NCBI GenBank assembly: GCA_963575745.1
Contig: CAUYUJ010000141.1
Span: forward strand, 62,001-117,710
DNA length: 55,710 bases
Source: Prorocentrum cordatum
Taxonomy: Eukaryota
Reading direction: 5' to 3'
Shown here: positions 9,901 to 47,345 of the stretch, in pieces
How positions within the stretch are numbered: position 1 is the first letter of the stretch
Layout of the letters: every line of letters starts with the position of its first letter
Made by a program: the position numbers and the translations under genes
The notes under the pieces: model-generated
Databases searched by the model: none
Told to the model about the DNA's origin: nothing
Seen by the model: only the letters and a program-made list of their open reading frames with translations

Positions 9901-9996
9901 TAATACTGGACCTAGAGCCATAGAAAATTTACCAGAAGGTGCGCCATAGCTTACTACAGGGAATAAAAATCTCACTTCTACAAACGAACTTCAAAA

Positions 9997-12452: not shown

Positions 12453-12455
12453 TAT

Positions 12456-13085: not shown

Positions 13086-13151
13086 TTTTGCATAAAGTGA
13101 AAAACACCGACCCCAGGTTACCACATTCTCTCTTTTCGTCGGGCCAGCCAA

Positions 13152-21900: not shown

Positions 21901-22375
21901 ATTCTGCATGAGTTAGCTGTGCTTACCAGCTCTGTAGCTGCTCTAGAGCTCGAGTTATGTTCAGAAAACCGTCAGCGCATATCAAGATGACTCGAAACGG
22001 CCGATCCCGCCACCGTGCTTTTTGGCCTTCAAAGTTACCCGATCGAGCTGAGATCAAGATGGCGAGCGGGAATAAGATCGAATATCACGGGAAAAAATAC
22101 TAGAGCTCTAACGAATGGTCAAATTTCGAGAACAAAATTTTCAACCGAGCAAAAGTCACCAAAAGTTCCGTCGAGATTTTTCGAGCCAACTAGCTGTGGG
22201 CGCGCCGGAATTACTCTTAGCTTCCAGCTATAACTAGCTAAGGGAAGCTCTACGAGTTACTCTTAAGCTTCCAGCAATAACTAGCTAAGGGAAGCTCTAC
22301 GAGTTAAGTTCAGTCGAGTTTTTTCGAGCCAACTAGCTGTGGGGCGCGCCGGAATTACTCTTAAGCTTCCAGCAA
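18994..22375 (-). mobile_element. Three-level nest of long-family elements: 18994[19948[21020-22259]22306]22375
   Basis: Junctions rejoin at gaatta|ctcttaagc and gttgtcaaa|agttcag, matching empty sites in other copies. Confidence 0.85.
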
Positions 22376-23409
22376 CTGGGCGCCGGCGGTAAACCGTCAA
22401 CCTTTGTTACCGCCGGGGGACTCGTAGAGCTTCCTGACAACATATAATGTCGAAGAAAATTGCAGAGAACGAATAGTTTTTCAGCCCAACTCGAGTATCA
22501 GACCGAGTTCGGACCTCTGAATGCAGCAGACAGAGGCGTCTGATGTCTCCGAATCGATTCCTGTGATTACCCGCCCTGCAGCCCCCCTACAGCCCGAGCT
22601 AAGTGCAGAACGCCGACAGTAGCTCTGAAGATGACTGGAAGAATACGAACAGTTTCGTGATTCTAGATCGCGCAGCAGACGGAGTTCAGAGCTCTGAATT
22701 CAACAGGCGAACGCGCCTGATTATTCTGAGTGCGATGGGCGTGCTTACCAGCACTGTAGCTGCCCTACAGCTCGATTAAAGTAGGAAATACCGACAACGC
22801 GTATCAAGTTGACTCGAATAATACGAATAGGTTTGCGGACCTAGCTCGGCTAGCAGACCGAGTTCAGCCCTATGGATTCAACAGGCGAACGCGCCTGATG
22901 ATTCTGAGTGCGATAGCTGTGCTTACAAGCTCTGTAGCTGCCCTACAGCTCGAGTTAAGTAGAAAATACCGACAACGCGTATCAAGTTGACTCGAATAAT
23001 ACGGATAGGTTTGCGGACCTAGCTCGGCTAGCAGACCGAGTTCAGCCCTATGGATTCAACAGGCGAACGCGCCTGATGATTCTGAGTGCGATAGCTGTGC
23101 TTACAAGCTCTGTAGCTGCCCTACAGCTCGAGTTAAGTACAAAATACCGACAGCGCATATCAACATGACTCGAAACGGCCGTTCCCGCCAGAGTGCTTTT
23201 TGGCCTTCAAAGTTACCCGATCGAGCTGAGATCAAGATGGCGAGCGGGAATAAGATCGAATATCACGGGAAAAAATACTAGAGCTCTAACGAATTGTCAA
23301 ATTTCGAGAACGAAATTTTCAACCGACCAAAAGTCACCAAAAGTTCCGTCGAGATTTTTCTTGCCAACTAGCTCTCCAGCGCGCCGGAATTACTCTTAGC
23401 TTCCAGCTA

Positions 23410-25092
23410 CTGGCGCCGGCGGTGAACCGTCAACCTGGTTACCGCCGGGAACCTCGTAGAGCTCCTTTCTCGCGTGAGAGTGCTCAGAGTCGAAAGAGAG
23501 AGCTTCTGGAAGCATTTCTCGAAAAAGGGAAAAGTTGTTTTTTTTCGTGTCGACATGAAGATGGTTCCGCCAAGTGTTTTGATAGTAAAAGTGCGCCTAC
23601 AGAGCTCATATTAAGACAGAGAGGCCCTCATATTCGTTTACAGGTGCGAAAAATCTGCTTTCTTGAAATGAATTGTCAAATATTTTTCAAAAAATTGCAA
23701 AACTACCCAAAAGTTATCACTTTGTCCTTTCTGGCCGGGTCGACAACTGGGCGCCGGCGGTAAACCGTCAACCTTTCTTACCGCCGGGGGACTCGTAGAG
23801 CTTCCTGACAATATATACTGTGGGAAAAATCTCCAAAGAACGACTATTTTCAAGCCCAAGCGATTTCAGACCTCTCAAGATAACGCTAACAAAAAACAAA
23901 CAGTTTCGCAACCCAGTTCGAGTATCAAACCGAGTTCAGACCTCTGAATGCGACAGGCGGGCGCGTCTGATGTCTGCCAACCCACTCATGTGATTCCAGC
24001 CCTAAAGCCCCCCTACAGCCCGAGTTAAGTGCAGAAAACCGACAGTATCGACTCGAATAATATAATAGTTTTGCGAACCTAGTTCGAGCAGCAGACCGAG
24101 TTCCGAGCTCTGGAATCGACCGAAAGACGCGCCTGATGTGTGCAAATCGATATATGTGACCTGCAGCACTGTAGCCCTCCCCCAGCACGAGTTGAGTGCA
24201 GAAAAATTAAGAGCACGTCTCAAGATCATTCGGACAATACGAACAGCTTCGCGAACCTAGCTCGGGCAGCAGCCGAGTTCAGAGCTCTCGGTTCAATAGA
24301 CGAACGCGACTGATGATTCCCCATCGATGTCTGTCACAATGAGCCCTGTAGCTGCTCTACAGCTCGAATTTAAGTACAGAAAACCGAGAGCGTCTATCAA
24401 GATGACTCGAATAATACGAATAGGTTTGCAGACCTAGCTCGGCTAGCAGACCGAGTTCAGACCTCTGGATTGAACAGGCGAACGCGCGTGATGATTCTGA
24501 GTGCGATAGGTGTGCTTACCAGCACTCTAGCTGCCCTAAAGCTCGAGTTAAGTACAGAAAACCGAGAGCGTCTATCAAGATGACTCGAAGAATACGAATA
24601 GGTTTGCGGACCTAGCTCGGCTGGCAGACCGAGTTCAGACCTCTGGATTCAACAGGCGAACGCGCCTGATAATTCTGAGTGCGATAGCTGTGCTTACCAG
24701 CTCTGTAGCTGCCCTACAGCTCGAGTTAAGTACAAAATACCGACAGCGCGTATCAAGATGACTCGAAACGGTCGTTCCCGCCGGGACGCTTTTTGGCCTT
24801 CAAAGTTACCCGATCGAGCTGAGATCAAGATGGCGAGCGGGAATAAGATCGAATATCAAGGGAAAAAATACTAGAGCTCTAACGAATTGTCAAATTTCGA
24901 GAACAAAATTTTCAACCGACCAAAAGTCACCAAAAGGTCCGTCGAGATTTTTCTTGCCAACTAGCTCTCCAGCGCTCCGAATTACTCTTAAGCTTCCAGC
25001 AATAACTTGCTGGGGGAAGCTCTACGAGTTACTAGCTCCACCCCGCGCCGGAATTCCTCTAGCTCATCGATGCCGAAGAGCTCTACGAGGTA
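23410..25092 (-). mobile_element. Short element (23410-23746 plus 25032-25092) with a complete nested long element (23747-25031)
   Basis: Both pairs of termini are present and the host rejoins at caa|ctagctcc. Confidence 0.85.
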
Positions 25093-26327
25093 CTGGGCGC
25101 CGGCGGTAAACCGTCAACCTTTCTTACCGCCGGGGGACTCGTAGAGCTTCCTGACAATATATAATGTGGAAACGAATTAGAGAACGACCAGTTTTCGCTT
25201 ATGAACCTCCAAAGATGACTCTAACAAAAACAGTTTCGCAGATTTCGTTCGAGCAGCAGACCGAGTTTCGAGCGATCGGTTCGACGAACGGACGCGCCTG
25301 ATGTCTCGAAATCGATTCCTGTGACCAGCAGAGCTATAGCCCTCCCCCAGCACGATTTATGTACAGAAAACCGAGAGCACTTCTCAAGATGACTCGAACA
25401 ATACGAATGGGTTCGCGAACCTAGCTCGGAGAGAAGGCCGATTTCAGAGCTCTTGATGCAACAGACGAACGCGCTTGATAAGTCTCAATCGATTTCTGTT
25501 AGTATGAGCTCTGTGGCTGCCCTATAGATCGAGTTAAGTACGAAAAACCGAGAGCGTCTGCTACAATGACTCGAATAATACGAATAGGTTTGCGACCCTA
25601 GCTCGGCTAGCAGACCGAGTTCAGACCTCTGGATTCAACAGGCGAACGCGCCTGATCAATTCTGAAGCATTAGCTGTGCTGACCAGCTCTGTAGGTGTCC
25701 TGAAGCTCGAGTTATCTTGAAAAACCGACAGCGCCTATCAAGATGACTCGAAACGGCCGTTCCGGGCCTGCCTGCTTTTTGGCCTTCAAAGTTACCCGAT
25801 CGAGCTGAGATCAAGATGGCGAGCGGGAATAAGATCGAATATCATGGGAAAAAATACTAGAGCTCTAACGAATGGTCAAATTTCGAGAACGAAATTTTCA
25901 ACCGACCAAAAGTCACCAAAAGGTCCGTCGAGATTTTTGTTGCCAACTAGCTCTCCAGCTCCCCGGAACTGGCGCCGGCGGTGAACCGTCAACCTGGTCA
26001 CCGCCGGGAACCTCGTAGAGCTCCTAGCACGCGTGAGAGTGCTCAGCATCCAAGCAGAGAGCTTCTGGAAGCATTTCTCGAAGAAGCGAACACATGATTT
26101 TTTTTCATGTCGACATGAAGTTGGTTCCGCCAAGTGTTTTGATAGTAAAACTGCATGTAGAGAGCTCACATTAAGATGCAGAGTCCCTCATAGTCATCTA
26201 CAGGTGCGAAAAATCTGCTTTCTCACAATAAATGGTCAAATATCTTTCAAAAAATCGCAAAACCACCCAAAAGTTATCACATTGTCCGTTCTGGTCGGGT
26301 CGACCAACTGGCGCCGGCGGTAAACCG

Positions 26328-26338
26328 TCAACCTGGTT
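26328..26338 (+). repeat. Target-site duplication copy 1 (TCAACCTGGTT); other copies at 32161-32171 and, as AACCTGGTT, at 38133-38141
   Basis: Direct repeats at all three retrotransposon junctions. Confidence 0.93.
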
Positions 26339-29300
26339 TGTTTGTTTGTTTGGACTCGCGTTCCCAGCTGGGTGCAGCTGGGCGAGGACCGGTCCCGCAG
26401 AAGCACACGGGCAGCGCTAAGCAGCGCTTCGGCTGCCGACAATTCACATTCTGTGACTGTAGCTCCTTCGAGGAGCCACGCGGCCTCGGCCACATCCCTC
26501 AAAACGAGGGGCACGGCACTAGAAACAGCAAACTCATGCCCAGCAGGGAAGGGGCCCACGGTTCTCGCGGAAGCGATTCCTATCTCACTGGGATTGCACT
26601 GAGTATTGATTAAGCCGATCTGAAGCCAGAAACCACATCCTGATCCTTGCTGGTCAACCCCGCCATCAAAGCCTCCCCTGATAGCGAACGGTACGAGATA
26701 AGTTTCGAATGGATATAGATAACGATGAGTTCTGTAGAATGTGCGGCCATATCTGGCCTCATGCGTCAATTCATCCGCTCGTGTATTGTCCTCCCTGAAT
26801 TCGTGTCTCCATATCTCACGTCCCAAGGCAGCAGGCCTCAGATTGAAACACGCGGCGAGCTCAAAGGTACAATCAATCATGGCAGCTGTCCTCTTGCAGT
26901 AGCCACGATTCTCACATCTCCATTTACCCTGGAGCCAGGAGCAGATAAGTAGTGAGTCACCCTTGAACTCAGCAGCAAAACCCTCTGACGATATGTCCCA
27001 CACAGTCGCGCGTTCCTGGATCATCGCATATCGTATTGCAAGCTTGGCGGACTCTTTGGGGTCATACTTGGGGTGCAGAGGGTTGGTCGCGGTATCGACC
27101 ATCTCAGCATCGGCCTTCTCACGAGCCTCAGGGGAGCCTCGAGGTCCATTAGGAGAGCCCTTCCAAGACACCACAAAGTAATCATAGACCTTAGATTTGT
27201 TGTATTGTATAAGGAGTTGCTTCCATACCTCCAAGAATTGAACCCAATCACCCCGTACAGACTCCCACCACTTTTCCCCAAAGAACTGAATGTATGGGAA
27301 CTGCCAAGACCGTCCGCCCACAGACACAGGGCCTCCACGAAGCCGTTTGCCCGAACTAGATAAGGCCCTGCTGCCGTGTTGTCGTAGAACCTCTGTTATT
27401 GTGTCGCGAGCCGTGACCCAGCCAACATTGTACATCATAAGCGCACGTCGGGAGTCTCGAAAGGCCCTCCTCCCCTTTGAGACGGCAAGCGGCTCGTCTC
27501 TGAGAGCGTGGGCAGCTCCCTCTCCAGAGGGCATCGGCTGTGAGCGGGCAATGGAACAGGCGACCTGCGAGCAGAGATCCTCCAGCCTCCTCTCCATGTC
27601 CGTAATCCTCCCCTCCGCCTCCATCACAGTCGCAGCAGGTATATCCTCCCCCCGTCCCTCCGTAAAGCGAACACGTTTAGCACGTTGAGTCGTTGATCCC
27701 TCCACCTCAACCTCCGTCCTTGCCGTCCTGTCCTCCTCCAAAGATAGTAAATATTGCCTCGTGGAGCGCATCATGCCCCAGCTCTTCCAGCACAGCATCT
27801 GCACAGCCGATGGGAAACCCCCATCGCAGAAGATTGTCCTGACACGTGTCAGTGCAGCTGGCCGCCATACCTCCCACCCCACATCTCCTGGCTTCCTCCT
27901 CCCTGACATTCTCAGAAGACACATACCCTCGAACGCATGAATAACCCTCACACACTCACTGTCAATCGTGATGGCCTCTGCTGCATATAAAAGGCGGCTC
28001 TGCACAGTCGATTGATATCGACGAAACTTCTTCACCAGAGGCAACGCCCTGCACGTAAAATACTGCACCTGCGCAAAGAACGCCCGTCGGGCCTGCTGGA
28101 CGCGCTCCTGCACATCCGTGTGGATAGCAGTGAAACTTCTGGGAATCTGATATCCCAGCACATTCAAACTCTCAACATGCTTGAAAGGTACAATCCGCGA
28201 GCCAATCTGAACCGTGACCGTATCAGTGTACTGAGTACCACACACCATCATTTCTAAACTCTCCTCCTTCCACTCCATCCCCCAATCCCTGAGAGCAGTA
28301 GTGAAGGCAGTGGCTGCTACCTGCGCCTCCGATGCTGACTTGGCGGCCAGAAAAATATTGTCGGCCCAGAGAGCATGATTCCACCGTGCGTACCGGCAGT
28401 GATCGTCATGGCATGGCATCTCGACTCCGACACCGCGCTGGTCCAGGCGAGCAATCACATCCCGCCACATAGCAATAGTGACAATAGTAAACGCGATAGG
28501 TGATTCGGTACCCCCAGTGCGGAGTGACCTGTCCCATTGCACATTTGGGATTGTCACTCCTTCAAACAGCACCGTGCATGAGGTAGATGAGAGAGGCTCC
28601 AATAACGCATACTGTAACCGTGCACTGATCCCCAGGGCCGTCATCGCTCTCGAGACTGTCGGCAGCGTCACAGCATCGAACGCCCGCTCGATGTCACAGC
28701 TGAGGAGCCACGCCGTTTGATCTCGCCCCCATGTGGAAGCATGCTGTGCAATACATTTCATGGCCGATGAAATCTCCCAGCAACGCCGTCCGCTGGTAAA
28801 ACCGTAGACCGCCATATCACTCATGAAGGGTTCCACACATCTTTCCAGTAAAATCGTCACGCACGTGAGATACCACTTGGCCAAGGTATTTCCAACAAGC
28901 AGGTTCCTTGTTTGTCGCAATGTTTCCAGTTTACTCGTTTTCGGCATAAGTGTTAGGTATACTTCCTGCCATTCCCTTGGCGTCGGGCGAAGCCCGTTGA
29001 ATATATCAGAGAAAACCTTACCAATAGAACGCACTGACCTCCACGAAAGAGCCTTGAGAAGTTCAACCGAGATGCCGTCGGGCCCACAGGCCCGTCCTGT
29101 TCGGAGTCTGCTCCGCGCCTGCAGAATAGTAGAGTATGTGATCGTAAGTGTGTTGTCCGAAGAGGCTGTTGATTGAGATGCATGGCGACGCAGTGTGGAC
29201 ACTAGCTCCCGATTGCGGGCTCTGGAGTCATCACAAGTCATACTCTGCACAGCATATCGCTCCACCTCCTCCGCCCATAGTTCCCTGTCCTCCGTCATCA

Positions 29301-30607
29301 TAGTCGTAGGACCCACATCCCCTCCCCCAGTGTCCGTCACCCTCAACTCCGTCACACGTGTCCTCCTCCCCTTCCTAGATGGTAGTGCCTCCCACTCCAC
29401 CTTCCGTCGGCGATATTCCCGCGCCAGCGGTCTGATGCGACGTCGAAGGTCTCGAGCCAACGCTCTGTCCTTCCTAGCACGTGCCTCTCTGAGTTGTACC
29501 TCCAGGTCGGCATGTTGAGGAGTCCTACTTGGTGGGAGCCCTCTGGAGTACCTGGGGGCCCTCACCGCGAGGAGTGGTAACGCATGTTCAGCGATCGTTC
29601 CAGCAATACGTTGTGGGGGCACCGTCGGGATCTGCACGTCCGCCAGGACCTGGAATTGGGCCTCCTCCCGATACGATTGGAACTCTTTGTGGCTTGTGTG
29701 GTGGCTAGGGGGGCCTTGATATTTCGTGACCTGAGGGTTCTGCATCTGGAACTCGGCGTAGACACAGGCGTGATCCGAGAAGTTGGTAGTCGGGGTCTCT
29801 GGGATCCAATCCGTTCGGCATTCAACCAAGTCACCCTCCCAGGATTGTGGGACCATGAGATAGTCAAGCACTTTTGGCGCAATAGTCTTCGCCCCAGACT
29901 TGCGTCGAGCATTGTTCGCACGATGCACGAAGGTCGGCTGCCGAGAGTACGGCGAGCCAAGAATTGACTGCCAGCAAGCGCATCCGACATAGCCACTCCT
30001 GCAGCTGAGATCGCCACATGTCCTCCTCCCACCGTCTATCCTCCGTATCATTCCCATATCCCCTCCCGTCGAGAATCTGCACAGCGCCTCCAGTCACCGT
30101 GCCTCCTGAACAGGTGATGTCGGGCGCAAGCTCAACATTAAAATCCCCTGCAATCACAAGCTCACATGTGTATCTGCACTCCTCCTTCCACCTCCGATAT
30201 GTTGTTTCGATTGTTTTCAGCATCTCAAAAGCCACCTCCAATGAACGATTCTCCGATCTATTCGGAAAGTACGCAGAGACAAGAAGGATACACGGATGAC
30301 GCAAGCACACAATAGCAAGACGAGCATGATTGTTCCAAGAACGAACTATGTTGTGACAAGACTTCCCCCTCAAAGCTATGGAAGCCTTCCTGTCACTTGA
30401 GTAAACTAGGTGCCAGCCAAGCAGCTGAATTGAATTGGACGGTAAGTGTTCACACTCCTGTAAACAGAACACTTCACAGCCGTGAGAAAGAAGTGCCCTC
30501 ATGCAAGCAAATCCCCGATCTGCTGTAGCCCCTTGTTTCATAAGATTCTGGGTGCCTAGCCTATGCTGGGCTGTGGGGCCACCAGCCCGACTGGCACCTC
30601 TGCACCG
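26339..30607 (-). pseudogene. Pol region of LINE 1: APE endonuclease, reverse transcriptase and permuted RNase H; one frameshift near 29950
   Basis: APE motifs GTQN, LQE, SAYFP, AGDFN in the 29864..30541 frame, then LDY and SDH in the 26236..30057 frame. RT motifs GPDG, LMPK, DIERAFD, LRTGGTESP, WADN, LNVLG. RNase H motifs GDS, REDNTRAD, FDGG, ECE. Confidence 0.9.
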
Positions 30608-31924
30608 TCACACCCTGCCGGCAAGACTCGCAACAAATGTGTCGTATGTAGTCGTCACACCGCTGCGCATAAGTACACCCTCCCAGATCTCGCGGTCCAC
30701 TGTCCACCCCGTATTGATACGAAAGGATGCCAGTTCCACAGGTCGGTGCTGAGGATCCTGCGGTTTGGTCCACATTGTGCTCCGTCCGTTGGGTCCCGAT
30801 CCTGTCTCCCCCCTGATCTCCATAGCCTCACCGTTGGTGCACTCGCGGTATGTCCCGTAGAAACGCCCCACAGCTCCGATATGATCACGTTTCCATGGTG
30901 GAGCTTCTATACGTACTCGGACCCGACTGGGTCGCTGTAACATGCCCTGGAACATGCTGTCATAGTCTGGAGGTGACCTCGAAACCTGAGCCGCATTCCT
31001 CTGGGGATTCGGAGTTAAAGCATCATCAAAAGCACGCTTCACGTTGTATAGTATCGAAGAGTCGGTTCCTACAATGAATTTGATTTTGATCGTACTCAAC
31101 ATCATTCTACTTCCATTCATACGTAATGTGCCCTCGTAATCGATCCTAGCTTCATCCTCTGCAGCGATGGCCGTCTTCAAATTAGTAATAAATTGTGCAG
31201 CGTCCGTATCTCTCATCATACTGGCCGAACGTGTAACCGCTGTCCCGCTCCAGTCAGTCCAGCCTGTGAGTTCCACATAGCTGGGATTGAAGCTGGATGG
31301 TCCCGAGAGTCCTGGCGGGCCTCCTCCATAGGAAGGTGCCGTGGTCGAGGCAGCACCTGATATCACACTGGGGTTCTTCTTGAGATCCTGCATTTGTCGT
31401 TCCAAGTTGCTCATCCTGATGTCGGAGGCCTCCTGACGGTTCGAGATGCTCTGAATATCGGCCCTAATTTCGACGTTTTCTTGTTGCCTAACTTTGCTCT
31501 CGAGTACGTTGAGCTCCGCGAAGGCCTTGAACCAGGATGGGGCCTCGTCCGAGACCACACTGAGTTTCTTTCGCTTCTCCTCGAGTTCCCCCAAGAGTGC
31601 CTCCTGAGGACCATTGACACGATGTTTGACATTTCGTTGGGCGTCGTCGCTAACACCCTGCATACCCTGACGCTCTCCAGCACCTTCAGGGACAACAGCC
31701 GCTTGGGCCGCCGCTTGTTGTGCCTCCGTGGGCATACCTGGGGGTCCCCCTAGAGCACCTTGTGGAGCTGGGCCTCTAGGAACAACAGGAGCGCCTCCAG
31801 ATCCTTGACCTCCAGGACTGACCTGACCTGCTGGAGCCCCTCCCACACGCCCTCCGTTGATCGTATTTCCCGCCACAGCTGCGTTGGAAGGAGTCTGCAT
31901 CATATTCATGAGCCCTGTATTCAT
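30608..31924 (-). CDS. ORF1-like region of LINE 1 (Gly/Pro-rich N-terminus, coiled coil, probable RRM-like domain)
   Basis: Open frame from the first ATG at 31924, with a heptad-like segment (LEEKRKKL...MSNLERQMQDLKK). Motifs FNPSYVELTGW and EAPPWK are shared with LINE 2 (FTPTFIQLTGW, EPAPWK). Confidence 0.75.
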   Translation of the reverse strand: MNTGLMNMMQTPSNAAVAGNTINGGRVGGAPAGQVSPGGQGSGGAPVVPRGPAPQGALGGPPGMPTEAQQAAAQAAVVPEGAGERQGMQGVSDDAQRNVKHRVNGPQEALLGELEEKRKKLSVVSDEAPSWFKAFAELNVLESKVRQQENVEIRADIQSISNRQEASDIRMSNLERQMQDLKKNPSVISGAASTTAPSYGGGPPGLSGPSSFNPSYVELTGWTDWSGTAVTRSASMMRDTDAAQFITNLKTAIAAEDEARIDYEGTLRMNGSRMMLSTIKIKFIVGTDSSILYNVKRAFDDALTPNPQRNAAQVSRSPPDYDSMFQGMLQRPSRVRVRIEAPPWKRDHIGAVGRFYGTYRECTNGEAMEIRGETGSGPNGRSTMWTKPQDPQHRPVELASFRINTGWTVDREIWEGVLMRSGVTTTYDTFVASLAGRV

Positions 31925-32386
31925 ATTCACAAATGAAGATGGGACAGCACAATGACAATCACTATCTGGTGTGGAGTCGGCAGTATTCAATCTCCCGTCC
32001 AGTGGAAGGTCACGCACAATTTGCTCGGTATCCTGAAGTTGCCTCTTCCGAGACGCCCTCTCAACAGCAGAATCTGGTCTCTCAACAGCGTAATCCTGTG
32101 AGTCCTGCAAATAAGGTACAGTCGGGGAAATATCCTCCAGCTGGAAACGTCTACAGCTCCTCAACCTGGTTTTTTGAGTTTGAGTCAGGGCGCGGACAGC
32201 TGTGACAGCTGAGCCCTAAGACTCCCAAACGGAGCACAGGGTAGCTGGAGAGGGCAACTCTTATCATCACACTGCCGAGCCACTGAGGCATAGGCAACGG
32301 AATAGGATGCAGGAACAAGGAAAAGGATGCAATACAACATGTGAAAATGTAAAGGTGTTGGAGAGCTCCAAGCAAGATGAAGTGAG

Positions 32387-35300
32387 TCAGCTGCTTGGAT
32401 GAAAGATGCTACCCAAAATGTGCTCCACGGCCATACAGAGCCGTTGTGCTGCAATCATCTCACAAAACATGACAGAAGCAGAGGCATCAAGCGAGACAGC
32501 TTCCTCCGCCACCAACTGCCACGTCCCGTGTACACACAAATCTATACACCATCCTGCAGCACATCCCTCCACAGAGCGACCTCCGTCGAAGAATCCACGG
32601 AGGCCGTCTAGTTTTGTTTTACTCGCATGTTCAATAAGTGAGGTATGGAACGTAACGTAACTATTTTTGGTTCTGGCCAACCATGTCAGCCTGTCAGCTC
32701 TTTCGTTTCCTTCTCGATAGATCCACCTGAACATATTGTGGCCCCAACTCGGAGGCCTCATACCATACAACACAGAGATATGCTCCAGCCTATTTTGAAT
32801 GTCGCCAAGAATGTGCTTGTAGATAATATTGGATGTTGCCCAGAGACCGTTAATCCAATTCACCCCTGTGGCGGAGTCCCCAATCAATTCCATCGGTATC
32901 GAGTCCCGAGGCTCCGCATTCCACTCCGATGCATGTTCATTAATGTACGCAAGTCGTTTCTCCATCTTCTCGTCCTCCTTCCTTTGCTGCTCCTCCGTCT
33001 TCTCCCTCTCCTCCTCCTCCCTAGCATATCCCGCAGGTTGTGCATGTTTAAAGTAACAGTACCCCCACGCCTCCTCCATGTTAGTAACATCCAGTGCCCG
33101 CTTCAGAAATTCTTTCCATCCCTGACGTGAAAAGGATAACGTGTGATACCAATCCTTCCCTGATACCAACTCGAAAATGTAATGGAAGTTTCTCAACGCC
33201 AGTGGTCTCCCCCCCTCATGCCGACGCGTCATTAATGGGCGTTCTTTCCAAGGCAGCGATGCAATGAAGGCCTGCCGTCGGTCAGTCCACTCCCCCGACC
33301 ATGCAAAAATACATTCTCTAGCCTGCATATGCGAGTCCCCTGTACTACGATGCTGAGGTGGAGCCACCCGTCGCCGCTTGTTTGCAGCGATTTCCTGCGA
33401 CGGCAACTCAACAGAGGAACGCTTTTGCGACAGAGAATCCTGAGATGGATGGAATGTCTTTGCACGCTTATGCATCTGGGAAATCAGATTGCGCCGATGC
33501 GCGGGTAATTGTGTCTGAGAACCAGGGAGCTCAAAGGAATCAACAGCATGCATCGTCTCACACACGTCAGGATGACATCCCATTGATGTCGAGCACGCAA
33601 TACTTGGTAGCACATACATGGGTTCATCCTGACGTTGTCTCTTGGCCGGCGGTGGCTCACACGCAGCAAAGACGTTGGGGCCAGGCTTGCCTGAAGAATC
33701 AAAAGTACCTGGAGGAATCTGTGCGGGTGTTGGGTTCAGGCGTTTCACAGTAAACGTACAGTCCTGAGCCCACTGCCACTGACGAAACAAGAATAGCTGC
33801 ACAAGAGACGGCCGTCCCAATTCCAGGAGCATACGCCGCCCACGTTTGTACAAGTTGCATAAGTATATACTCCAATCCATGTCGGCAGGTTTCGGGCGGC
33901 GTACCATAGAACACAATATTTTACCTTCCCACGTGTGCAACTGTTTCAAAGTGTGGTGGTCCGCTGGCATGCCTTCAACACCGAAAAGTACAAAACTACG
34001 CAACCTAGATTCATAATGCTTGATTTTCTTCTGGAAGGGTACAGCACGATTCGTATAAAACTTGCGGAACTGGTTAAATCGCTTCCAACCCCGAGCCAAT
34101 TTCCAAGCCACATCATGGTGTTTGTCAGTCTTGGTCGTGACCAGGCAACCCAGGCACTCCATTTCAGAGCATCGCGGAAGACACAGGGTACCGAGATCGT
34201 TCACCTGACAACGAGGTTCCCCGTCGAGGCGCCTTCACAGTCCTCCCCAAAGGCAAGATAGTGTAGTGAGGAATCTTTCCATCTGAAACCGTGCGTATAC
34301 AGCTGAGCCGAGAAGTCCCCCACCATACGTGTGAGCACAGTCTTTGATTTCGAGAAAAGCAAAATGTTATCGGCCCAGAGCGCATGAGTAAGATACCTCC
34401 CACCAGCCTCCACCCCCAAATCGTACCCCAACTTCACCTCCTCCCAATTCAGTACAATCCTATCCCACATCAGTAGTGTCACACACTTCCACAGGAAGGG
34501 GGCCTCCACACTACCAGTACGTACACATGCATCCCAGGGAATACCCGTCGCCGTGGAGTCCTGAAAGGTAAAGTCCGCTGTGTCCAGGACACTGGGAGCG
34601 AGTAGCGCCAACGCAAGGTCATTGGGGAACCCAGGGATGGCATCCAAGGCCCGACTGGCCTTCTCAACCGTGACGTTATCAAAGGCAGTCTGCACAACTA
34701 ATGACGCGAGGTGCAGGGTCTCATCTTTCCCCCACTCCAGAGCGTGTGTGGTGGCATGCTTAAGCATGGCAGTGATCTCGTGCGTGCGCCTTCCCTTGCA
34801 AAATCCGTAGTTATGTAGATATTGTGGGACCCTTTTCAGATAACCTTCAGCAATCTCAACCAAACATGAAGTATACCATTTGCTTAGGCTGCTAAGTAAG
34901 ACTAGAGCACGAGTATCAGACAACTTAGTGATATCTTTAGCTTTCGGCATCAACACCACAAGCAACTCAGACCAAATCCGAGGAGTAGGATACCGTTGAA
35001 GATACTGGTCTTGGAATAACCGAAGAATATGACGCAAACCTACCCACGTGATACGTTTCAACATAGAAGGAGAAACTCCGTCCTTACCCACCGCCTTACC
35101 ACACTTTAAGCGTGATCGTGCCTGTAACAATACGGACATGGAAATGGGGGAGACGTCCACTGTGTTCGTGTCCTGCAACCTCCTCCTCCTCCTCCTCTCC
35201 TCGATACACTCCACGTTACGTATCCCTTGCGCAGCACAGTGGTACTTGGCGAACCCGTGAGCATAGAGCGCCTTCTCCCACAACTCCCTATCCTCCGTGA

Positions 35301-36690
35301 GCACATCGTCAAAACTCAATTTGTCCACCACCGTCCGAGCGAGCTTCCCGTCACGATGATCGTATTCGAGTCGACGACGAGTGTGTGCACGCATCTCCTT
35401 CCTTCTCTCTTTCTTAACCCTGATGAGCTCCTCCTCCTCCCCTCCTTCACGACGCAGTCGGCGATATTCCTCATCAAGTTCCTTATGACGATCTGTCTTT
35501 TTGGGGATCTGCATTTTCTTTGGGACATTGGTGTATGACTCCTTGTCCTGTGTACATGCATTCAAGATAACAGGAGCCAATTCATCCGGGCAGAGACCAG
35601 ATGGGTAACGAGCTGCAGCATGCAAACGACGATCAAGGTTAGCCGAAACTTGCAATTCCGAGGCTTCTTCGCAGCACCAATGAGTGAACGTTTGTCGTGG
35701 CTTCGTTCTCCAACGTCGAGTCGGAGCGGCCGATTCGGGGACAAGCAAGGTGAGCAGGGCATGGTCCGACAGGCGGGTCTTTCTGGGGTCCACGGAGCCC
35801 CTGAGTGTTGGCCTTAACCACGACACCTCCCACTGAGGCCTTTCCCAGGAGCTCGGAATACACAGGTAATCAAGAACCTTGTCCTCCTCCTCCGTCTCCT
35901 CCCTGGCCTTCCAGGTCGTATGACGGGTCCCAAAAGAATTCGAGAAAACCAAATCATAATGCCACATACATTCACAGAGCTCGTCACACATGTATTGTTG
36001 CATCCTCCTCCTACCCTGCTGGAAACCTCCACGTCCACCTCCTCCTGCATTGTCCCATTCTTCAAATCTCTCACCCTGCACTGCAGAACCAGTCAAAGCA
36101 ACATCTCCAAATACCGTGTGAGGCAGAAGCTCAACGTTAGCATCCATCCCGATGAACAAGTCCCACCCTTCCTTGGGAAACCTAACTCGGAGCGTATCCA
36201 AATCCTTTCGAAACGACTGCAATGTTTGTGTGAATAAGATATTGTGATCCCCTTTTTTCGGCGCATGTGGTAAGTACAAGCTGGCAACAATCAACGATTG
36301 AAAAACGAGAATGACATAACGATTACCCCTGATGCATTCACGTATGGAGGCTCTCCACACCCTCTTGTAGAGAACCCCGGCCTTCCCATCATTAGAAAGA
36401 GTAAAGGTGAAACCATGCTCAGAGCACCTACCTATTCCAAGGAACTGGCACTCCTGCAAAGCGAGAACTTCCGAATTCGAGGTCTTGATCTGAGCAAGCA
36501 TGTCGTGGCTGTTCATGCTGCCACAGCGCCTCACGTTATACGTGCCCACGATGGCGCCATGGCACCTTCTCCAGGTACGAAAGTTGAGCTTGGCCAGAAA
36601 GACCTCGCAATCCAACTTGTCATCGACCTTACGCAGCAGCTCGGCGTCAACCTTCCACCCCAAGTTAGGATCAAACACGGCAATGCATAC
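32387..36690 (-). pseudogene. LINE 2: ORF1 C-terminus fused to APE endonuclease, RT and permuted RNase H; frameshift near 34205
   Basis: APE motifs GTYN, LQE, SLYLP, GMDAN, LDY, SDH. RT motifs GKDG, LMPK, VVQTAFD (first Asp lost), VRTGSVEAP, WADN, MECLG. RNase H motifs GDS, REGNERAD, FDGG, FCE. Confidence 0.9.
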
Positions 36691-37704
36691 TCAATCCGTC
36701 TTCGGCGTCGTGGCCGAAGGGTAGCCCCACACATAGCTGACAGGAGGACCCATCTCACCCTTCAGCCACTGGGATCCACTCCTGAGAGTAGCAAAGAAAG
36801 CTTGACAACGACCCACGGCAGAAACATGTGGCTGCTTCCAGGGTGCTGGTTCACAGGATACGCCGAGACGCTTGTTGGCCAGGATGGGAGTGACTTGCTT
36901 CAAGTCGTGCGTGTCATTCTCAAGCTCGACGGCCCAAGAGTTGCGTATCTCCCAAATTTCATCGTTCGTCAACTTGCCACTTATAACATATAATCGTATA
37001 CGATAAAGACCATATGGTTTATTTTTGTGCTCCCGCTCGATCCTACTCATGTCGAAATGCTCCTCAGTCATCTTTCCTGTGCCACGGACAAATTAACGAA
37101 TGACAGGCAGGGCATGATCCCAGGAGAGCATATCCGATGAACGAGTCTTGAGATTGCCGACTCCACCTCGCGCCCAACCTGTGAGTTGGATGAAGGTCGG
37201 TGTAAAATCCTCCCGCACTCGATTCCATTCGCGAATTGGCGTACGACTACCATACCTGGGAGCAGTGGCCGTAGCAGAGGAGCCCGCAGGGCCCGCATAG
37301 TTACTCCAAGCATCCGTGGACCCTGATCCTGCATCACTGGGTGGACCCTTCTGCTGAAGCGAGCGGATCTGCTGCTGCATAGCAGCAATGTCAGCCTCAT
37401 TTTTCTCACCACGCTGGTCGATCCGTTTCACATCCTGCTCAATCCGTGAAATTCTTTTCTTCTGAGTGTTCTGTTTAGCTAGCATAGCCTTCATCATAGC
37501 AAACTGTTGCTTCATAGGATTGCCGTCATCAAATTCGCCGAACTGCTCCTCCTCCTCACTGCTTGCCTGAATCATATCCTCCTCCTCACCCACAGCCTTA
37601 CTCTTCTTACAACAGGGCGCACCTGCTGGGTGTTGCTGAGACATCGCTGCGAAGGTGACGGTGTTCGAATACTTGAGCTCCTCTGGAAACCCCCACTGGT
37701 CCAA
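36691..37704 (-). pseudogene. ORF1-like region of LINE 2 with in-frame stops (TAA 37093-37095, TGA 36691-36693)
   Basis: ORFs 37093..37704, 36691..37071 and 34201..36678 are all in one frame. Coiled coil RISRIEQDVKRIDQ...MQQQIRSLQQ; motifs shared with LINE 1 ORF1. Confidence 0.78.
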
Positions 37705-37799
37705 GAAATTGATGTCCTCACGCGAACGCTTAGAATCTGTCGTCGTGTCGAACAGATGTCCTCACAAGAGTGTTGAACAGATGTCAAACTCGACCTCCA

Positions 37800-38040
37800 A
37801 AGAGTGTGTACGGTACTCAGGCAAAAGACACTCTGCAGCACGCGTGCGGGAATCTGAGACAAGCAAAGAATGAGTGTGTACGGTACTCGTAGGCTACCAC
37901 AAAGAATGTGCACAGGCCTTCGACACTCAATGAAAGCGCACGGTACTCCGACAATCTGAACAGTCAATGCGCACTCCGACAATCAATGAACGTGTACGGT
38001 ACTCAGGCAAAACAGACACTGAAGCACCGTGTACAGTATG
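37800..38040. repeat. Short imperfect direct repeats in the LINE 2 5' UTR
   Basis: The motif (gtgt)acggtactc recurs at about 37806, 37876, 37940 and 37993, with gtgtacggtactcaggcaaaa present twice. Confidence 0.7.
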
Positions 38041-38309
38041 AGGAACCAAAGACTCCTTTCTGCACAATGCAGCTCGAGACGAGGGGGACCCCAGCGGTGA
38101 GGCCAGGCTGAGCAGGAGGTAAGCTCTGCCCTAACCTGGTTACCGCCGGGGACCTCGTAGAGCTCCTCGCACCCTCGAGAGTGCTCGGAAAAAAAGCAGA
38201 GAGCTTCAGATATGATCTTCTTAAACATTTCAAACAAGGTATTTCCTATGTCCCCATCCGACCCTGAAAGTGTTCGGCGCGAGGTCGAGAAACCGAGTAG
38301 CGAAGATGC

Positions 38310-39089: not shown

Positions 39090-39461
39090 CAGACACACAC
39101 ACGCACCAGACACACGAACGCAATCGCGAACACCCACAGAAAAGACGCACTGAGAACAGAGACAGTCACACAAGCAAACGCACACACACACACGCACAAA
39201 CGAACACACTTACAGCCACACCCACGTCACACGAACGAACACTTACAAACACACGCACGAGCCCCCCCCCGACCCCCTCCCGGCGCTCCGGAGGGGGGAG
39301 GCACCGCCGCATCTTGGGGCCGGCCCTCCCCCCACTCAAACCACTCCGCCCTCGCGGGGCGCCGGAGGAAGGGGGAGGGGGAGCGCGGGGTTGCGAGCGC
39401 CGCGCGCGCACACACACACGCACTGACACACACACGCACACACACACGCATACACACGCGC

Positions 39462-39515
<54 letters not shown>

Positions 39516-39544
39516 CGGACAGACAGACAGACCGACAGACAGAC

Positions 39545-39579
<35 letters not shown>

Positions 39580-39632
39580 GACAGACAGACAGACAGACAG
39601 ACACACACACACACGCACAGACAGCCAGACAC

Positions 39633-39671
<39 letters not shown>

Positions 39672-42557
39672 CACACAGGCATACAGACACACAGACACAC
39701 AGACACACAGACACACAGACACACGGACACACAGACACCCGGGCAACCAGACACACAGACACACAGACACACAGACACACAGACACACAGACACACAGAC
39801 AGACACACAGACAGACAGACACACACACACACACAGACACACAAACACAGAGACCCACAGACACACAGACACACAGACACACAGACACACGGACACACAG
39901 ACACACAGACAACACACACACAGACAGACAGACACACGGCCATACAGACACAAAAAACACACGGACACACAGACACACAGACACACAGACACAGGCACAG
40001 AGACACACAGACACACAGACACACAGACACACAGACACACAGACACACGGACACATAGACACACAGACACACAGACACACAGACACACAGAAACACAGAC
40101 ACGTAGACACACAGACACACAGACATACAGACACACAAATACACAGACACACAGGCACACAGACACTCAAGCACACAGACACACAGAGCACCAGATTCAC
40201 AGACACACAGACACACAGAAACACAGACACACGGACACACAGACACGCAGACACCCAGACACGCAGACACGCAGACACACCAACACACAGACACGCAGAC
40301 ACAAGCACACACAGACACGCAGGCACAAAGGCACACAGGCACACAGACACACAGACACCCAGACAACCAGACACACAGACACACAGACAAACAAATACAC
40401 AGACACACTGACACACTGACACACAGACGCACAAAAACACGGACACACAGACACACAGACACATAGACACACAGACACATAGACACACAAACACACTGAC
40501 TGGCAGACAGAACCCCCCCCCACCCCAACCCACCACACCCCCTTTCCGGCACTCCGGAGGGGGGAGGCACCGCCCCATTTTGGGGCCGGCCCTCCCTCCA
40601 CTCCAACCACTCCGCCCTCGCGGAGCGCCCGAGAAAGGGGAAGGGCGGGGGGGGGCCAGCACGGGGCTGCCAGCGCCGCGCGCGCACGCACACACACACA
40701 CTGACACACACACACGCACGCATACACACACACGCAAATACACGCGCACAGACACACAGACAGACAGACACACACACACAGACGCACCGAAAGACAACAC
40801 AGACAGATCCACAGGCAGACAGACACACAGACACACAGACAGACGGACACGCAGACACACGGACACACAGACACGCAGACACAAGGACACACAGACACAC
40901 AGCCAACCAGTCACACAGACACACAGACATCCAGACACGCAGATACTCAGACACACAAACACGCGGACACACAAACACACAGCCATGCACACACACAGAC
41001 ACGGACACACGGACACAAAAGACACACGGACATACAGACACGCAAACCCAGACACACAGACACACAGACACACAAACACACAGACACACAGACACACAAA
41101 AACACAGACACACACGCACACAGACACACGGACACACAGACACACAAACACACAGACACACAGGCACACAGACACACGGACACACGGAACACAGACACCA
41201 ACACACAGACACACAGACACACCAACACAAAAACACACAGACACACAGACACACAGACACACAGACACACCGACACACAGACACACAGAAACACAGACAC
41301 ACAGACACACGGACACGCAGTCACGCAGACACACAACCACACGGACACACACACACGGACACACAGACACGCAATCACACAGACACACAGACACAGAAAC
41401 AACCAGACACACAGATGCACAGACACACAGACACACAGACACACAGACACGCGGACACACTGACAGACTGACACCCAGACACCAAGACACACAGACACAC
41501 ATACACATAGACACACAGACACACTGACACACTGACACACTGAAACACAGACACACAGCCACACTGACACACGGACACACGGACACGCAGACACACAGAC
41601 ACATAGGCCGCCAGACACACAGATACACAGACACAAAAACACACGGACACAAAGACAGACAGACAAACACACACACACAGGAACAGGGACACACAGACAC
41701 AGAGACCCACAGACCCACAGACACACAGACGCACAGACAAGCGGACACTCAGACACACAGACACACAGACACACAGAAACACAAACACACAGAAAGACAG
41801 AAAGACAGAAACACAGGCACACAGGCACACAGACACACAGACACACAGACACACAGACACACAGACACACAGACACACAGACACACAGACACGCAGACAC
41901 ACAGACACACAGACATAAAGACACACAAATACAAAGACACACAGACACACAGACACTCAAGCACACTGACACACAGATGCACAGACACACAGACAAACGG
42001 ACACTCAGACACACAGACACACAGAAACACAGACACACAGACACACAGGCACACGCATACACGCACACAGACACACAGACCCAAGGACACACCGACACGC
42101 AGGCAAAAAGGCACACAGGCACACAGACACACACAGACAGACACACAGACACACACAAACGGATACACCGACACACTGACACACTGACACACAGACACAC
42201 AGACGCAAAAAAGAAACAGACACACAGACACACAGACACACAGACACACAGACACACAGAAAAAGGGACACCCAGACACACAGACACACAGACACACAGA
42301 CACACAGAGACACAGACACATTGACACACTGACACACTGACACACAGAAACAAAGACACGCAGACACACAGAGACACACACACACAGACACACAGACTCA
42401 CAGACACACAGACACACAGACAAGGCAACACAAACACACAGACACACAGGAAGACACGCAGACAGAAACACAGGCACACATACAAACAGACACACAGACA
42501 CACTGACTCACAGACACACAGACACACAGACACACAGACACACAGACACACAGACAC

Positions 42558-42588
<31 letters not shown>

Positions 42589-45451: not shown

Positions 45452-45494
<43 letters not shown>

Positions 45495-47314: not shown

Positions 47315-47345
<31 letters not shown>

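What the first reader, a model, noticed from the sequence alone, without database searches (positions are those of the whole stretch)
26308..38165. Two divergent LINEs inserted in tandem at the same base of a Helentron 3' hairpin: a candidate site-specific hyperparasite
Seen: ...ggcggtaaaccgTCAACCTGGTT-[LINE1]-TCAACCTGGTT-[LINE2]-AACCTGGTTaccgccgggg... Deleting both elements and the duplications restores a perfect hairpin terminus. The two elements are distant at protein level yet share orientation and 3' junction, and the nicked end (...GGTT-3') can pair with their CAAA/A-rich tails as TPRT predicts. Known: some APE-type LINEs (Tx1 and R1 clades) are sequence-specific, and Tx1L targets a DNA transposon. 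I know of none that targets a rolling-circle transposon terminus. Inference: this is a LINE clade specialised on Helentron termination hairpins, a self-renewing safe harbour. Insertion would break the hairpin and might disable the host element or let the LINEs hitch-hike.
Basis: partly seen in the sequence, partly recalled or inferred. Interest (0 to 1): 0.93.

Follow-up and report, generated by a model that had tools for sequence, protein, structure and literature searches.

The report
LINEs that target a Helentron hairpin
Two unrelated-looking retrotransposons sit back to back at the same base of one DNA hairpin belonging to a rolling-circle transposon, and copies from other samples show the same junction, so this looks like a family of jumping genes that homes in on another jumping gene.

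Summary
Two minus-strand APE-type LINEs (26339-32160 and 32172-38132) sit head to tail in one hairpin. They are collinear, 28-36% identical over the long RT alignments, and share no nucleotide similarity. Their duplications are 11 bp and 9 bp. Removing both elements restores a hairpin as stable as the 30 intact copies in the window.

The host is a same-orientation array of HINE-like units lying 3' of a Pif1-helicase/APE-endonuclease ORF, a ubiquitin-hydrolase ORF and a 10-kb microsatellite. That is a Helentron-like layout.

LINE1-type ORF2 has no stop codon before its (CAAA)n tail, so database proteins carry the translated 3' flank. Of 7 readable 3' junctions, 4 show the hairpin and 1 shows CCAGGTTGA, the only flank it can show. 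One of the four comes from a third family, 58% identical to LINE1. Two junctions are not recognisably the hairpin, and one of those matches the loop at 10 of 13 bases. In contaminant contigs of another organism the loop is conserved and the stem covaries.

I read this as a target-specific LINE lineage that nicks at the loop-stem boundary (CCTGG|TT). The hairpin's role as terminator, "hyperparasitism" and hitch-hiking are untested. No whole genome or long reads were available. It is a new target class for a known kind of element.

The parts
26314..26338 (+). Left half of the occupied hairpin: arm CCGGCGGTAA (26314-26323), loop ACCGTCAACCTGG (26324-26336) and TT (26337-26338, which could be arm or tail). 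It includes copy 1 of LINE1's 11-bp duplication, TCAACCTGGTT (26328-26338).
26339..32160 (-). LINE1, 5.8 kb. The (CAAA)4 tail lies at 26337-26352. A CAGCTG-palindrome 3' stem-loop lies just upstream of the tail. ORF2 is open through the tail into the flank.
30611..31924 (-). LINE1 ORF1. The first ATG is at 31924 and the stop at 30608-30610. It has no Pfam match and is 24% identical over 369 aligned residues to LINE2's ORF1 region.
26341..30607 (-). LINE1 ORF2: APE-like endonuclease, RT, and a C-terminal RNase H-like domain. This copy has one frameshift near 29959; contigs of 4 runs carry an extra AG there. There is no stop codon before the tail.
   Evidence: (table 4)
32161..32171 (+). Target remnant between the two LINEs. 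It is copy 2 of LINE1's duplication (TCAACCTGGTT) and copy 1 of LINE2's (AACCTGGTT, 32163-32171).
32172..38132 (-). LINE2, 6.0 kb and the older element. An 829-aa APE+RT reading frame (34204-36690) is intact. The C-terminal part is broken by many stops. The ORF1 region lies at 36694-37761 and a repetitive 5' region at about 37560-38050.
38133..38165 (+). Right half of the occupied hairpin: copy 2 of LINE2's duplication (38133-38141), arm TTACCGCCGG (38140-38149), and the conserved flank GGGACCTCGTAGAGCTC.
1..26313 (+). Same-orientation array of 1.0-1.7-kb HINE-like units. The units contain 178-bp internal tandem repeats and 30 intact hairpins: 11 with arm GGTGA and 19 with arm GGTAA.
52494..55709 (-). 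Helentron-like ORF that runs off the window end. It carries a Pif1-type helicase C-terminal part and then an Exo_endo_phos endonuclease. No Rep domain lies inside the window.
39410..49439 (+). A 10-kb (ACACACAG)n microsatellite between the Helentron-like genes and the occupied hairpin.

Best explanation
This is a lineage of APE-type LINEs with ORF1 and an ORF2 made of endonuclease, RT and a C-terminal RNase H-like domain. It integrates preferentially at one position of a conserved 10-bp-stem hairpin carried by Helentron-associated repeat units.

Inferred mechanism: the element's endonuclease nicks the strand opposite its own sense at 5'-...GTCAACCTGG|TT-3', the boundary between loop and 3' arm. 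The freed ...GGTT-3' end pairs with the A-rich end of the (CAAA)n or A-rich tail and primes reverse transcription. A second nick 9-11 bases away inside the loop gives the 9-bp and 11-bp duplications.

Each insertion duplicates the recognition sequence, so a second element can enter the same hairpin. That produces the head-to-tail LINE2-LINE1 pair seen here. LINE2 probably came first.

Shown: the junctions, the duplications, three divergent families at the same base, conservation of the loop and covariation of the stem. Inferred: that the endonuclease sets the specificity, the order of nicks, and any effect on the host element.
For: Window anatomy:
- Two elements with no nucleotide similarity and 28-36% identity over the long RT alignments lie at the same base and in the same orientation, with 11-bp and 9-bp duplications.
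- The rebuilt site folds like the intact hairpins, -20.0 against a mean of -18.4 kcal/mol.

Independent junctions read from read-through proteins:
- P0176 is 97% identical to LINE1 over 181 residues and has a 14-nt tail. It ends in NQVDGLPPAPSLVG, which is the hairpin in frame 1 with a flank unlike the window's (APVGRP).
- P0175 has a 15-nt tail and ends in PG-stop, which is CCAGGTTGA.
- P0178 is 58% identical to LINE1 over 435 residues, so it is a third family. It ends in KQTNK-PRLTVYRQRPV, which is the hairpin in frame 2 with a variant arm.

Contigs:
- Three X6 contigs place CCGGCGGTAAACCG directly before 32161, which is LINE2's junction without LINE1.
- X1 record 1 and X8 record 25 join LINE1's 3' end to the hairpin arm starting at 26314 and 26313.

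Tally: 4 of 7 readable 3' junctions (window LINE1, window LINE2, P0176, P0178) show the hairpin. P0175 shows CCAGGTTGA, the only flank it can show.

More distant relative: in L003, 62% identical in the best tblastn segment, the tail is followed by CCTGGTTGTGGGT. That matches the loop at 10 of 13 bases (chance 1.3e-4).

The target is a constrained element. Among 41 distinct hairpins from the window and from 4 contigs of another organism, the loop bases ACCGTCAACC are invariant or at least 90% conserved. Stem pairs 2, 3 and 9 show double compensatory changes: CG 24/GC 14; GC 20/AT 11/CG 2; GC 7/AT 20.

LINE identity: RVT_1 matches. Exo_endo_phos matches are weak (LINE1 0.026; relative P0021 5.1e-05 over profile positions 1-210 of 225).
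Against: - P0019, of the same subfamily as P0178, reads ...KAGRIIFFFIALRS after its tail. That is not the hairpin.
- L003's flank beyond 13 bases is unrelated to the hairpin.
- Only 1 of 31 hairpins in the window is occupied. None of 27 pattern matches in genome G001 is visibly occupied by a LINE, and no LINE protein was found in G001.
- P0175, P0176 and the X1, X6 and X8 contigs could be copies or alleles of a few ancestral insertions that spread with the host repeat. They may not be separate events.
- If LINE2 came first, LINE1 landed exactly at LINE2's T-run. Attraction to a pre-existing tail could explain that one event.
- No whole genome was held, so the share of all copies that sit in hairpins is unknown.
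- Loose ends at LINE1's 3' junction were masked as repeat.
- All endonuclease matches are below Pfam's cut-off.
Confidence: 0.8

Rival explanations
1. Structure or a pre-existing break, rather than endonuclease sequence recognition, directs the insertions. The GC-rich hairpin extrudes as a cruciform, or is nicked or stalled during rolling-circle replication of the host element. Any A-tailed LINE RNA is then primed at that recurrent break.
For: The insertion point lies exactly at the loop-stem boundary of a hairpin whose stem covaries. Three families only 28-58% identical use the same base. One hairpin in G001 (L022:612-654) breaks at the same CCTGGTT| point without any LINE.
Against: The regular 9-bp and 11-bp duplications are what paired endonuclease nicks produce. 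The priming strand is antisense to the Helentron ORF, so it is not the strand a Rep acting on the sense strand would cut; this rests on recalled knowledge of Helitron transposition. L003's junction keeps a loop-like motif (10 of 13) in a flank that is not recognisably this hairpin, which points to sequence recognition.
Confidence: 0.1
2. There is no real target specificity. One LINE landed in the hairpin by chance. The second was drawn to the first one's A-rich tail, the kind of nested tail insertion known for L1 and for Zepp of Chlorella (recalled). The other hairpin junctions are duplicates of that locus spread by amplification of the host repeat.
For: LINE1's priming site coincides with the T-run of LINE2's tail if LINE2 was first. 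LINE2 is far more decayed than LINE1. The host repeat is highly amplified: flank bins reach word depths of 16,000-32,000, against a few hundred for most bins inside the LINEs in X20 and X6.
Against: P0178 belongs to a different family (58% identity) and sits at the same base of a hairpin with a different arm and flank. P0176's flank (APSLVG) and 14-nt tail differ from the window's (APVGRP, 16 nt). Even this model needs each first hit to find the same base.
Confidence: 0.06
3. The tandem arrangement is an assembly artefact that joins two separate LINE-bearing hairpin copies through the shared 11-mer.
For: No long read or listed contig was shown to bridge 32130-32200 (one search lists none). The region is highly repetitive.
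Against: Even if the pair were mis-joined, each LINE would still sit at the same base of a hairpin, so the main conclusion stands. The left and right hairpin halves match each other (arms TAA and TTA).
Confidence: 0.04

Closest known systems
Tx1L, the APE-type LINE of Xenopus laevis that inserts into the DNA transposon Tx1D
   Same: An APE-type LINE whose preferred target is a sequence inside another transposable element. Passages read in PMC1919474 state that Tx1L inserts into the Tx1D sequence.
   Different: The target here is the loop of a conserved hairpin in a rolling-circle (Helentron-type) repeat, not a cut-and-paste transposon. ORF2 ends in an RNase H-like domain and has no stop codon of its own. 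Clade membership was not tested.
R1-clade target-specific LINEs (R1 in 28S rDNA, TRAS1 and SART1 in telomeric repeats)
   Same: APE endonuclease with ordered bottom-strand and top-strand cuts at a fixed sequence. Multicopy 'safe' targets. Fixed orientation and short duplications (passages of PMC1919474). The nearest ESM-Atlas clusters are APE-RT-RNase H LINEs, and one is auto-named 'type-1 retrotransposable element R1' (scores 0.82-0.88, a lead only).
   Different: No PDB sequence match to any LINE endonuclease was found. The target is a parasite's structural element rather than a host gene or telomere.
Helentrons and their non-autonomous HINEs (DINE-1 and relatives)
   Same: The host of the insertions shows the features listed in passages of PMC4067079: Rep/helicase with a fused C-terminal endonuclease, a microsatellite, central tandem repeats, a stem-loop near the 3' end and inverted repeats beside it.
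   Different: The Rep domain and the true termini are outside the window or undefined. The units form a long head-to-tail array. The accessory protease is UCH-type, not OTU.
Zepp LINE clusters of Chlorella and L1 insertions into older poly(A) tails (recalled, no call)
   Same: Head-to-tail LINE pairs in which a younger element sits at the tail of an older one.
   Different: Here the junction keeps a duplicated target 11-mer. A third family sits at the same hairpin base, in a hairpin whose arm and flank differ from the window's.

Membership tests
Non-LTR retrotransposon (LINE), APE type | Reverse transcriptase domain | tested here: met
   PF00078 RVT_1 gives 8.9e-13 for LINE1 and 1.8e-07 for LINE2, both above the gathering score. 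There is a weak match to human L1 ORF2p, 8c8j, at 3.9e-4.
Non-LTR retrotransposon (LINE), APE type | N-terminal apurinic-like endonuclease in ORF2 | tested here: inconclusive
   All Exo_endo_phos matches are below the cut-off: LINE1 0.026, relative P0003 0.05, and P0021 5.1e-05 over profile positions 1-210 of 225. There is no PDB sequence match. The LQE and SDH motifs seen by eye are motif names recalled from memory.
Non-LTR retrotransposon (LINE), APE type | A-rich or simple-repeat 3' tail and target-site duplication | tested here: met
   (CAAA)4 with an 11-bp duplication, and CAAACTCAAAAAA with a 9-bp duplication.
Target-specific LINE | Most copies lie at the same target sequence in the same orientation | tested here: inconclusive
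   4 of 7 readable 3' junctions show the hairpin and 1 shows CCAGGTTGA only. Two (P0019, L003) do not show the hairpin. There was no genome-wide census because no genome was held.
Target-specific LINE | Independent insertion events at the same base | tested here: met
   Three families use the same junction: LINE1, LINE2 (28-36% identity over the long RT alignments) and the P0178 family (58%). The tails (16, 15 and 14 nt) and flanks differ.
Target-specific LINE | The endonuclease cleaves the target sequence specifically | not testable with these tools
   This needs a nicking assay.
R1 or Tx1 clade | Placement inside the clade in an RT phylogeny with reference elements | not tested
   No reference LINE set (Repbase) was available. 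The ESM-Atlas neighbours are only leads.
Helentron / HINE (host element) | Rep/helicase protein with a C-terminal APE endonuclease | tested here: inconclusive
   Pif1 2B domain 0.0032 and Exo_endo_phos 4.7e-05 (23.7 bits against a cut-off of 24.5), in that order. PDB Pif1 helicases match at 2e-08. Atlas clusters combine PIF1 and Exo_endo_phos, at scores 0.83-0.88. The Rep domain would lie beyond the window end.
Helentron / HINE (host element) | Stem-loop close to the 3' end, flanking inverted repeats, internal microsatellite and tandem repeats | tested here: met
   There are 31 hairpins. In the sense of the Helentron ORF, homology among units ends about 8 bases 3' of the hairpin, and 27-28 of 30 units are conserved at most positions for about 15-19 bases on the other side. 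GAGCTCTACGAGGT and ACCTCGTAGAGCTC flank some copies. There are 178-bp repeats and a 10-kb microsatellite.
Helentron / HINE (host element) | Insertion between T-T, with defined termini | not tested
   The units lie in a tandem array, and no isolated copy with flanks was available.

The most novel reading that the evidence does not exclude
An old, diversified LINE lineage with at least three families is specialised on the conserved loop of the Helentron subterminal hairpin. The target's own sequence constraint keeps renewing the site. The lineage has co-adapted to it. ORF2 carries no stop codon, and in one tail phase it is closed by the TGA of the target loop (CCAGGTTGA). It carries a circularly permuted RNase H domain. 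It sits in the sense orientation of the Helentron, so it can be co-transcribed and carried along when rolling-circle termination fails at the split hairpin.
Probability: 0.4. Interest if true: 0.82.

Novelty: new variant of a known kind. Interest (0 to 1): 0.68.

Why it matters
Target-specific LINEs are known for rDNA, telomeres, small-RNA genes, microsatellites and one cut-and-paste transposon. I found no report of one aimed at a rolling-circle transposon. Five full-text searches were read as listings only, and none of the listed titles or abstract starts mentions one.

If the lineage is confirmed, it offers three things:
- a natural case of one mobile element using another's functionally constrained structure as a safe harbour;
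- a handle on what the Helentron hairpin loop does;
- an endonuclease with a long, defined recognition site at a stem-loop boundary that could be tested on duplex against hairpin DNA.

The stop-less ORF2 and the apparently permuted RNase H domain are further oddities worth a specialist's look.

Tried and rejected
- No whole genome is held for the window, so no copy census was possible.
- The first word-index protein search with ORF2 residues 300-1285 found nothing. A later search with the last 100 residues added nothing new.
- The search for related loci with the C-terminal domain alignment found 3 JGI loci. It found none in genome contigs or viral contigs.
- A hairpin pattern found nothing in viral contigs.
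- Of 7 genome-contig hits to the hairpin pattern, 5 (L004, L005, L007, L008, L010) had no other similarity to the window and were dropped as chance.
- G001 holds no match to LINE ORF2 or to the Helentron ORF.
- I tested whether L003's downstream 526-aa ORF is a LINE ORF1 at a second occupied hairpin. It has no similarity to either ORF1, and no endonuclease start follows it. I leave this open.
- In read laying, positions 26328-26353 were skipped as repeat, so LINE1's 3' flanks in other copies could not be read. 306 loose-end rows were not shown. No contig was shown to bridge the LINE2/LINE1 junction. Depths could not be turned into copy numbers.
- Foldseek against the PDB and VIA-align wide gave no clear fold for the C-terminal domain. 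There were only partial RNase H rows: 4h8k_A at probability 0.77, 3aly_A, and 3u3g_D at Z 3.5.
- The PDB sequence search with LINE2's endonuclease region found nothing relevant.
- The search of earlier findings returned nothing on this genome or sequence.
Full report
**1. What is in the window**

The + strand reads ...GGCGCCGGCGGTAAACCG TCAACCTGGTT | TTGTTTGTTTGTTTGGACTCGC... at 26310-26359. At 32151-32185 it reads ...CTACAGCTCC TCAACCTGGTT TTTTGAGTTTGAG.... At 38125-38152 it reads ...CTGCCCT AACCTGGTT ACCGCCGGGG....

Both inserts are LINEs on the minus strand.
- LINE1 (26339-32160) ends in (CAAA)4 and is flanked by an 11-bp duplication.
- LINE2 (32172-38132) ends in ...CAAACTCAAAAAA and is flanked by a 9-bp duplication.
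- Both have Pfam RVT_1 matches above threshold (8.9e-13 and 1.8e-07).
- They are collinear over ORF1, the endonuclease region, the RT and the C-terminal region. Identity is 28-36% over the long RT alignments, and blastn finds no match between them.

LINE1 is nearly intact. It has ORF1, and ORF2 starts right after the ORF1 stop. There is one frameshift near 29959, where contigs of all four laid runs carry an extra AG. The word depth with the AG was 9.98 of 9.98 in X8, 10.3 of 10.3 in X1, 223.1 of 610.8 in X6 and 63 of 265.8 in X20 (table 4). LINE2 keeps an open 829-aa endonuclease-RT frame, but the rest is broken by many stops. LINE2 is therefore probably the older insertion.

**2. The hairpin and its host**

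A fuzzy search finds 30 intact copies of the hairpin in the window. All lie on the + strand between 355 and 26007. Eleven have arm GGTGA and 19 have arm GGTAA.
- With 22-base flanks they fold at a mean of -18.4 kcal/mol under DNA parameters.
- The site rebuilt in a script, by removing both LINEs and one copy of each duplication, folds at -20.0.
- The two junctions as they stand fold at about -10.

The hairpins belong to a head-to-tail array of 1.0-1.7-kb units with 178-bp internal tandem repeats. To the right of the hairpin, most positions over about 15-19 bases are the same in 27-28 of 30 units. To the left, only about 8 bases are conserved before the units diverge, with 10-15 of 30 agreeing. 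In the sense of the neighbouring genes, the hairpin therefore lies about 8 bases from where unit homology ends. Some copies are flanked by the inverted repeat GAGCTCTACGAGGT / ACCTCGTAGAGCTC.

On the minus strand, upstream of the occupied hairpin, lie three features.
- An ORF running off the window end has a Pif1 2B domain and then Exo_endo_phos. PDB Pif1 helicases match it at 2e-08. The nearest Atlas clusters combine PIF1 and Exo_endo_phos at scores 0.83-0.88, which is a lead only.
- A UCH-type protease ORF follows (5.4e-12).
- A 10-kb (ACACACAG)n tract follows that.

This matches the Helentron/HINE description in the passages I read of PMC4067079. That description lists an endonuclease fused to Rep/helicase, a microsatellite, central repeats, a 3' stem-loop and subterminal inverted repeats. 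The Rep domain and the true termini were not seen. The occupied hairpin is the first one 3' of the coding part.

**3. Is the hairpin a constrained element?**

A scan of prokaryotic genome contigs with the hairpin pattern hit 7 records. Five had no other similarity to the window and were dropped as chance. Two contigs of one MAG carry several hairpins each. A pattern search of that genome (G001) gave 27 matches on 5 contigs; 26 lie on four contigs and one, with a mismatch, lies on C58. These look like eukaryotic repeats binned by mistake, since only about 50 bases around each hairpin resemble the window.

I compared 41 distinct intact hairpins, 18 from the window and 23 from G001.
- The loop bases ACCGTCAACC are invariant or at least 90% conserved.
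- The stem shows double compensatory changes at pair 2 (CG 24, GC 14), pair 3 (GC 20, AT 11, CG 2) and pair 9 (GC 7, AT 20).
- 38 of 41 form at least 8 of 10 pairs.

The LINEs therefore sit in the most conserved part of a structure that is kept by selection.

**4. Is the position specific?**

Chance coincidence of two insertions in base and strand within this window is about 9e-6. One caveat applies. If LINE2 came first, LINE1's priming site coincides with LINE2's T-run, so tail attraction could explain that single event. Evidence from outside the window was therefore needed.

LINE1's ORF2 has no stop codon before the tail. It reads ...LGTRVQTNKQT and continues as RLTVYRRRQ..., which is the hairpin. 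Database proteins of this family should therefore carry their 3' flank in translated form. They do.
- P0176 (194 aa, 97% identical to LINE1 over 181 residues) ends ...QTNK NQVDGLPPAPSLVG. This is the hairpin in another frame after a 14-nt tail. Its outer flank (APS...) is typical of other units, not the window's APVGRP.
- P0175 (183 aa) ends ...QTKQK PG-stop, which is a 15-nt tail followed by CCAGGTTGA.
- P0178 (433 aa, 58% identical over 435 aligned positions, so a separate family) ends ...KQTNK PRLTVYRQRPVTRRASP. This is the hairpin with a variant arm and a different flank.

Contigs of public runs agree.
- Three X6 contigs have CCGGCGGTAAACCG directly before 32161, which is LINE2's junction without LINE1.
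- X1 record 1 (26314-27416, 7 differences) joins LINE1's 3' end to the hairpin arm.
- X8 record 25 (from 26313) does the same.
- These runs may include the window's own source, or the same loci as the proteins above.

Evidence against strict specificity:
- P0019, of P0178's subfamily, reads ...TQKTK AGRIIFFFIALRS, which is not the hairpin.
- In the JGI contig L003 (62% identical in the best tblastn segment), the tail is followed by CCTGGTTGTGGGT. This matches the loop at 10 of 13 bases (chance 1.3e-4) and is then unrelated.
- L001 and L002 end inside the tail and are uninformative. P0012 and P0177 stop before the tail.

The tally is 7 readable junctions. Four show the hairpin, one shows CCAGGTTGA only, and two do not show the hairpin. 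One of those two has a loop-like motif.

Occupancy is low. One of 31 hairpins is occupied in the window, none of 27 pattern matches in G001 is visibly occupied by a LINE, and no LINE protein was found in G001.

**5. Mechanism (inferred)**

The priming strand is the window's + strand. A nick at ...CAACCTGG|TT (give or take two bases, because the T are ambiguous) leaves a 3' end that can pair with the A-rich end of the tail. The second cut falls 9 or 11 bases away in the loop.

This is the ordered two-nick scheme shown biochemically for R1Bm (passages of PMC1919474). The loop-like motif at L003's junction favours recognition of sequence over recognition of structure alone. A role for the cruciform or for replication-associated breaks cannot be excluded.

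Each insertion duplicates the recognition sequence, so a hairpin can be hit again, as seen here. All elements lie in the sense of the Helentron genes, so co-transcription is possible. I did not test that, nor any effect on the host element.

**6. Comparison and novelty**

The closest analogue in principle is Tx1L in Tx1D, together with the R1-clade elements. I could not place the lineage in a clade because no reference set was available. The Atlas neighbours are APE-RT-RNase H LINEs at scores 0.82-0.88.

Five full-text searches listed no paper on a LINE aimed at a Helitron or Helentron. I read only the listings for these, plus passages of PMC4067079 and PMC1919474. I rate the finding a new variant of a known kind: a target-specific LINE with a new class of target.

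**7. Side observations**

The C-terminal domain of ORF2 is conserved in the relatives. Its motifs come in the order GDS / RExNxRADxLT / RGxFDGG / TxTExEL. The AlphaFold model has mean pLDDT 73.5, and above 90 over most of residues 160-300 and 330-365. Its element order is strand, helices, strands, helix, and then three long strands and a helix.

I read that order as an RNase H fold in circular permutation. That reading rests on my recalled knowledge of the RNase H topology and motifs. Three results point the same way:
- Pfam RVT_3 matches only profile positions 63-119 in P0002 (0.011, below the cut-off).
- Foldseek gives only partial RNase H rows.
- VIA-align gives only a partial RNase H row.
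No aligner that ignores sequence order was available.

The nearest named proteins are two EukProt entries labelled Pyramimonas sp. CCMP1952. One of them, P0007, is 83% identical to LINE1.

Noticed in passing
window 26236-26352 (minus strand); P0175, P0176, P0178, P0019: LINE1-type ORF2 has no stop codon before its (CAAA)n tail. The frame runs into the target. In one tail phase (P0175) it is closed by the TGA inside the target loop CCAGGTTGA. Relatives L001 and L003 do have a TGA about 40 nt before the tail.
   Followed up: partly
window 26371-27012 (minus strand), residues about 157-370 of the 380-aa C-terminal region: The conserved C-terminal domain has its RNase H-type motifs in permuted order. 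Its AlphaFold model has an element order that fits a circularly permuted RNase H. The fold searches gave only partial RNase H rows.
   Followed up: partly
window 26353-26400 and 32176-32225 (minus strand): Both LINEs, and L003, carry a short stem-loop built from CAGCTG palindromes 15-25 nt upstream of the tail. It may be a 3' recognition element for the RT.
   Followed up: no
window 39410-49439: A 10-kb (ACACACAG)n microsatellite with strong strand skew lies between the Helentron-like genes and the first hairpin. That is far larger than the short microsatellites described for HINEs.
   Followed up: no
window 49678-51408 (minus strand): A UCH-type ubiquitin hydrolase ORF (PF00443, 5.4e-12) lies next to the helicase-endonuclease ORF. 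The passages of PMC4067079 that I read mention OTU-type proteases in Helentrons.
   Followed up: no
L006, L009, L016-L023 (contigs C80, C118, C84, C99 of G001): A MAG labelled Nitrospinota holds at least four contigs full of this eukaryote-type hairpin repeat. This is probably a binning contaminant from a marine metagenome.
   Followed up: partly
L022:612-654 (minus): One hairpin in G001 breaks off exactly at CCTGGTT| and continues into unrelated AT-rich sequence with no LINE. That is the same breakpoint as the LINE junctions.
   Followed up: partly
L003:421-432 and 506-2086: The 12-mer GGTGACCAGGTT (hairpin arm plus loop start; expected 0.0003 times by chance) lies 232 nt downstream of the LINE tail. 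It is followed by a 526-aa ORF with no similarity to the ORF1 of LINE1 or LINE2. This may be a second occupied site.
   Followed up: partly
window 32676-33086: This bin inside LINE2's 3' part has a word depth of 15,334 in X20 and 119 in X8. That is far above its neighbours, and back-joints are reported (35446 to 33002). Another repeat is probably embedded there.
   Followed up: no
window 10740-12300: A GC-rich block of about 172-bp tandem repeats and short 61-bp repeats interrupts the unit array. No protein family matched its ORFs.
   Followed up: partly
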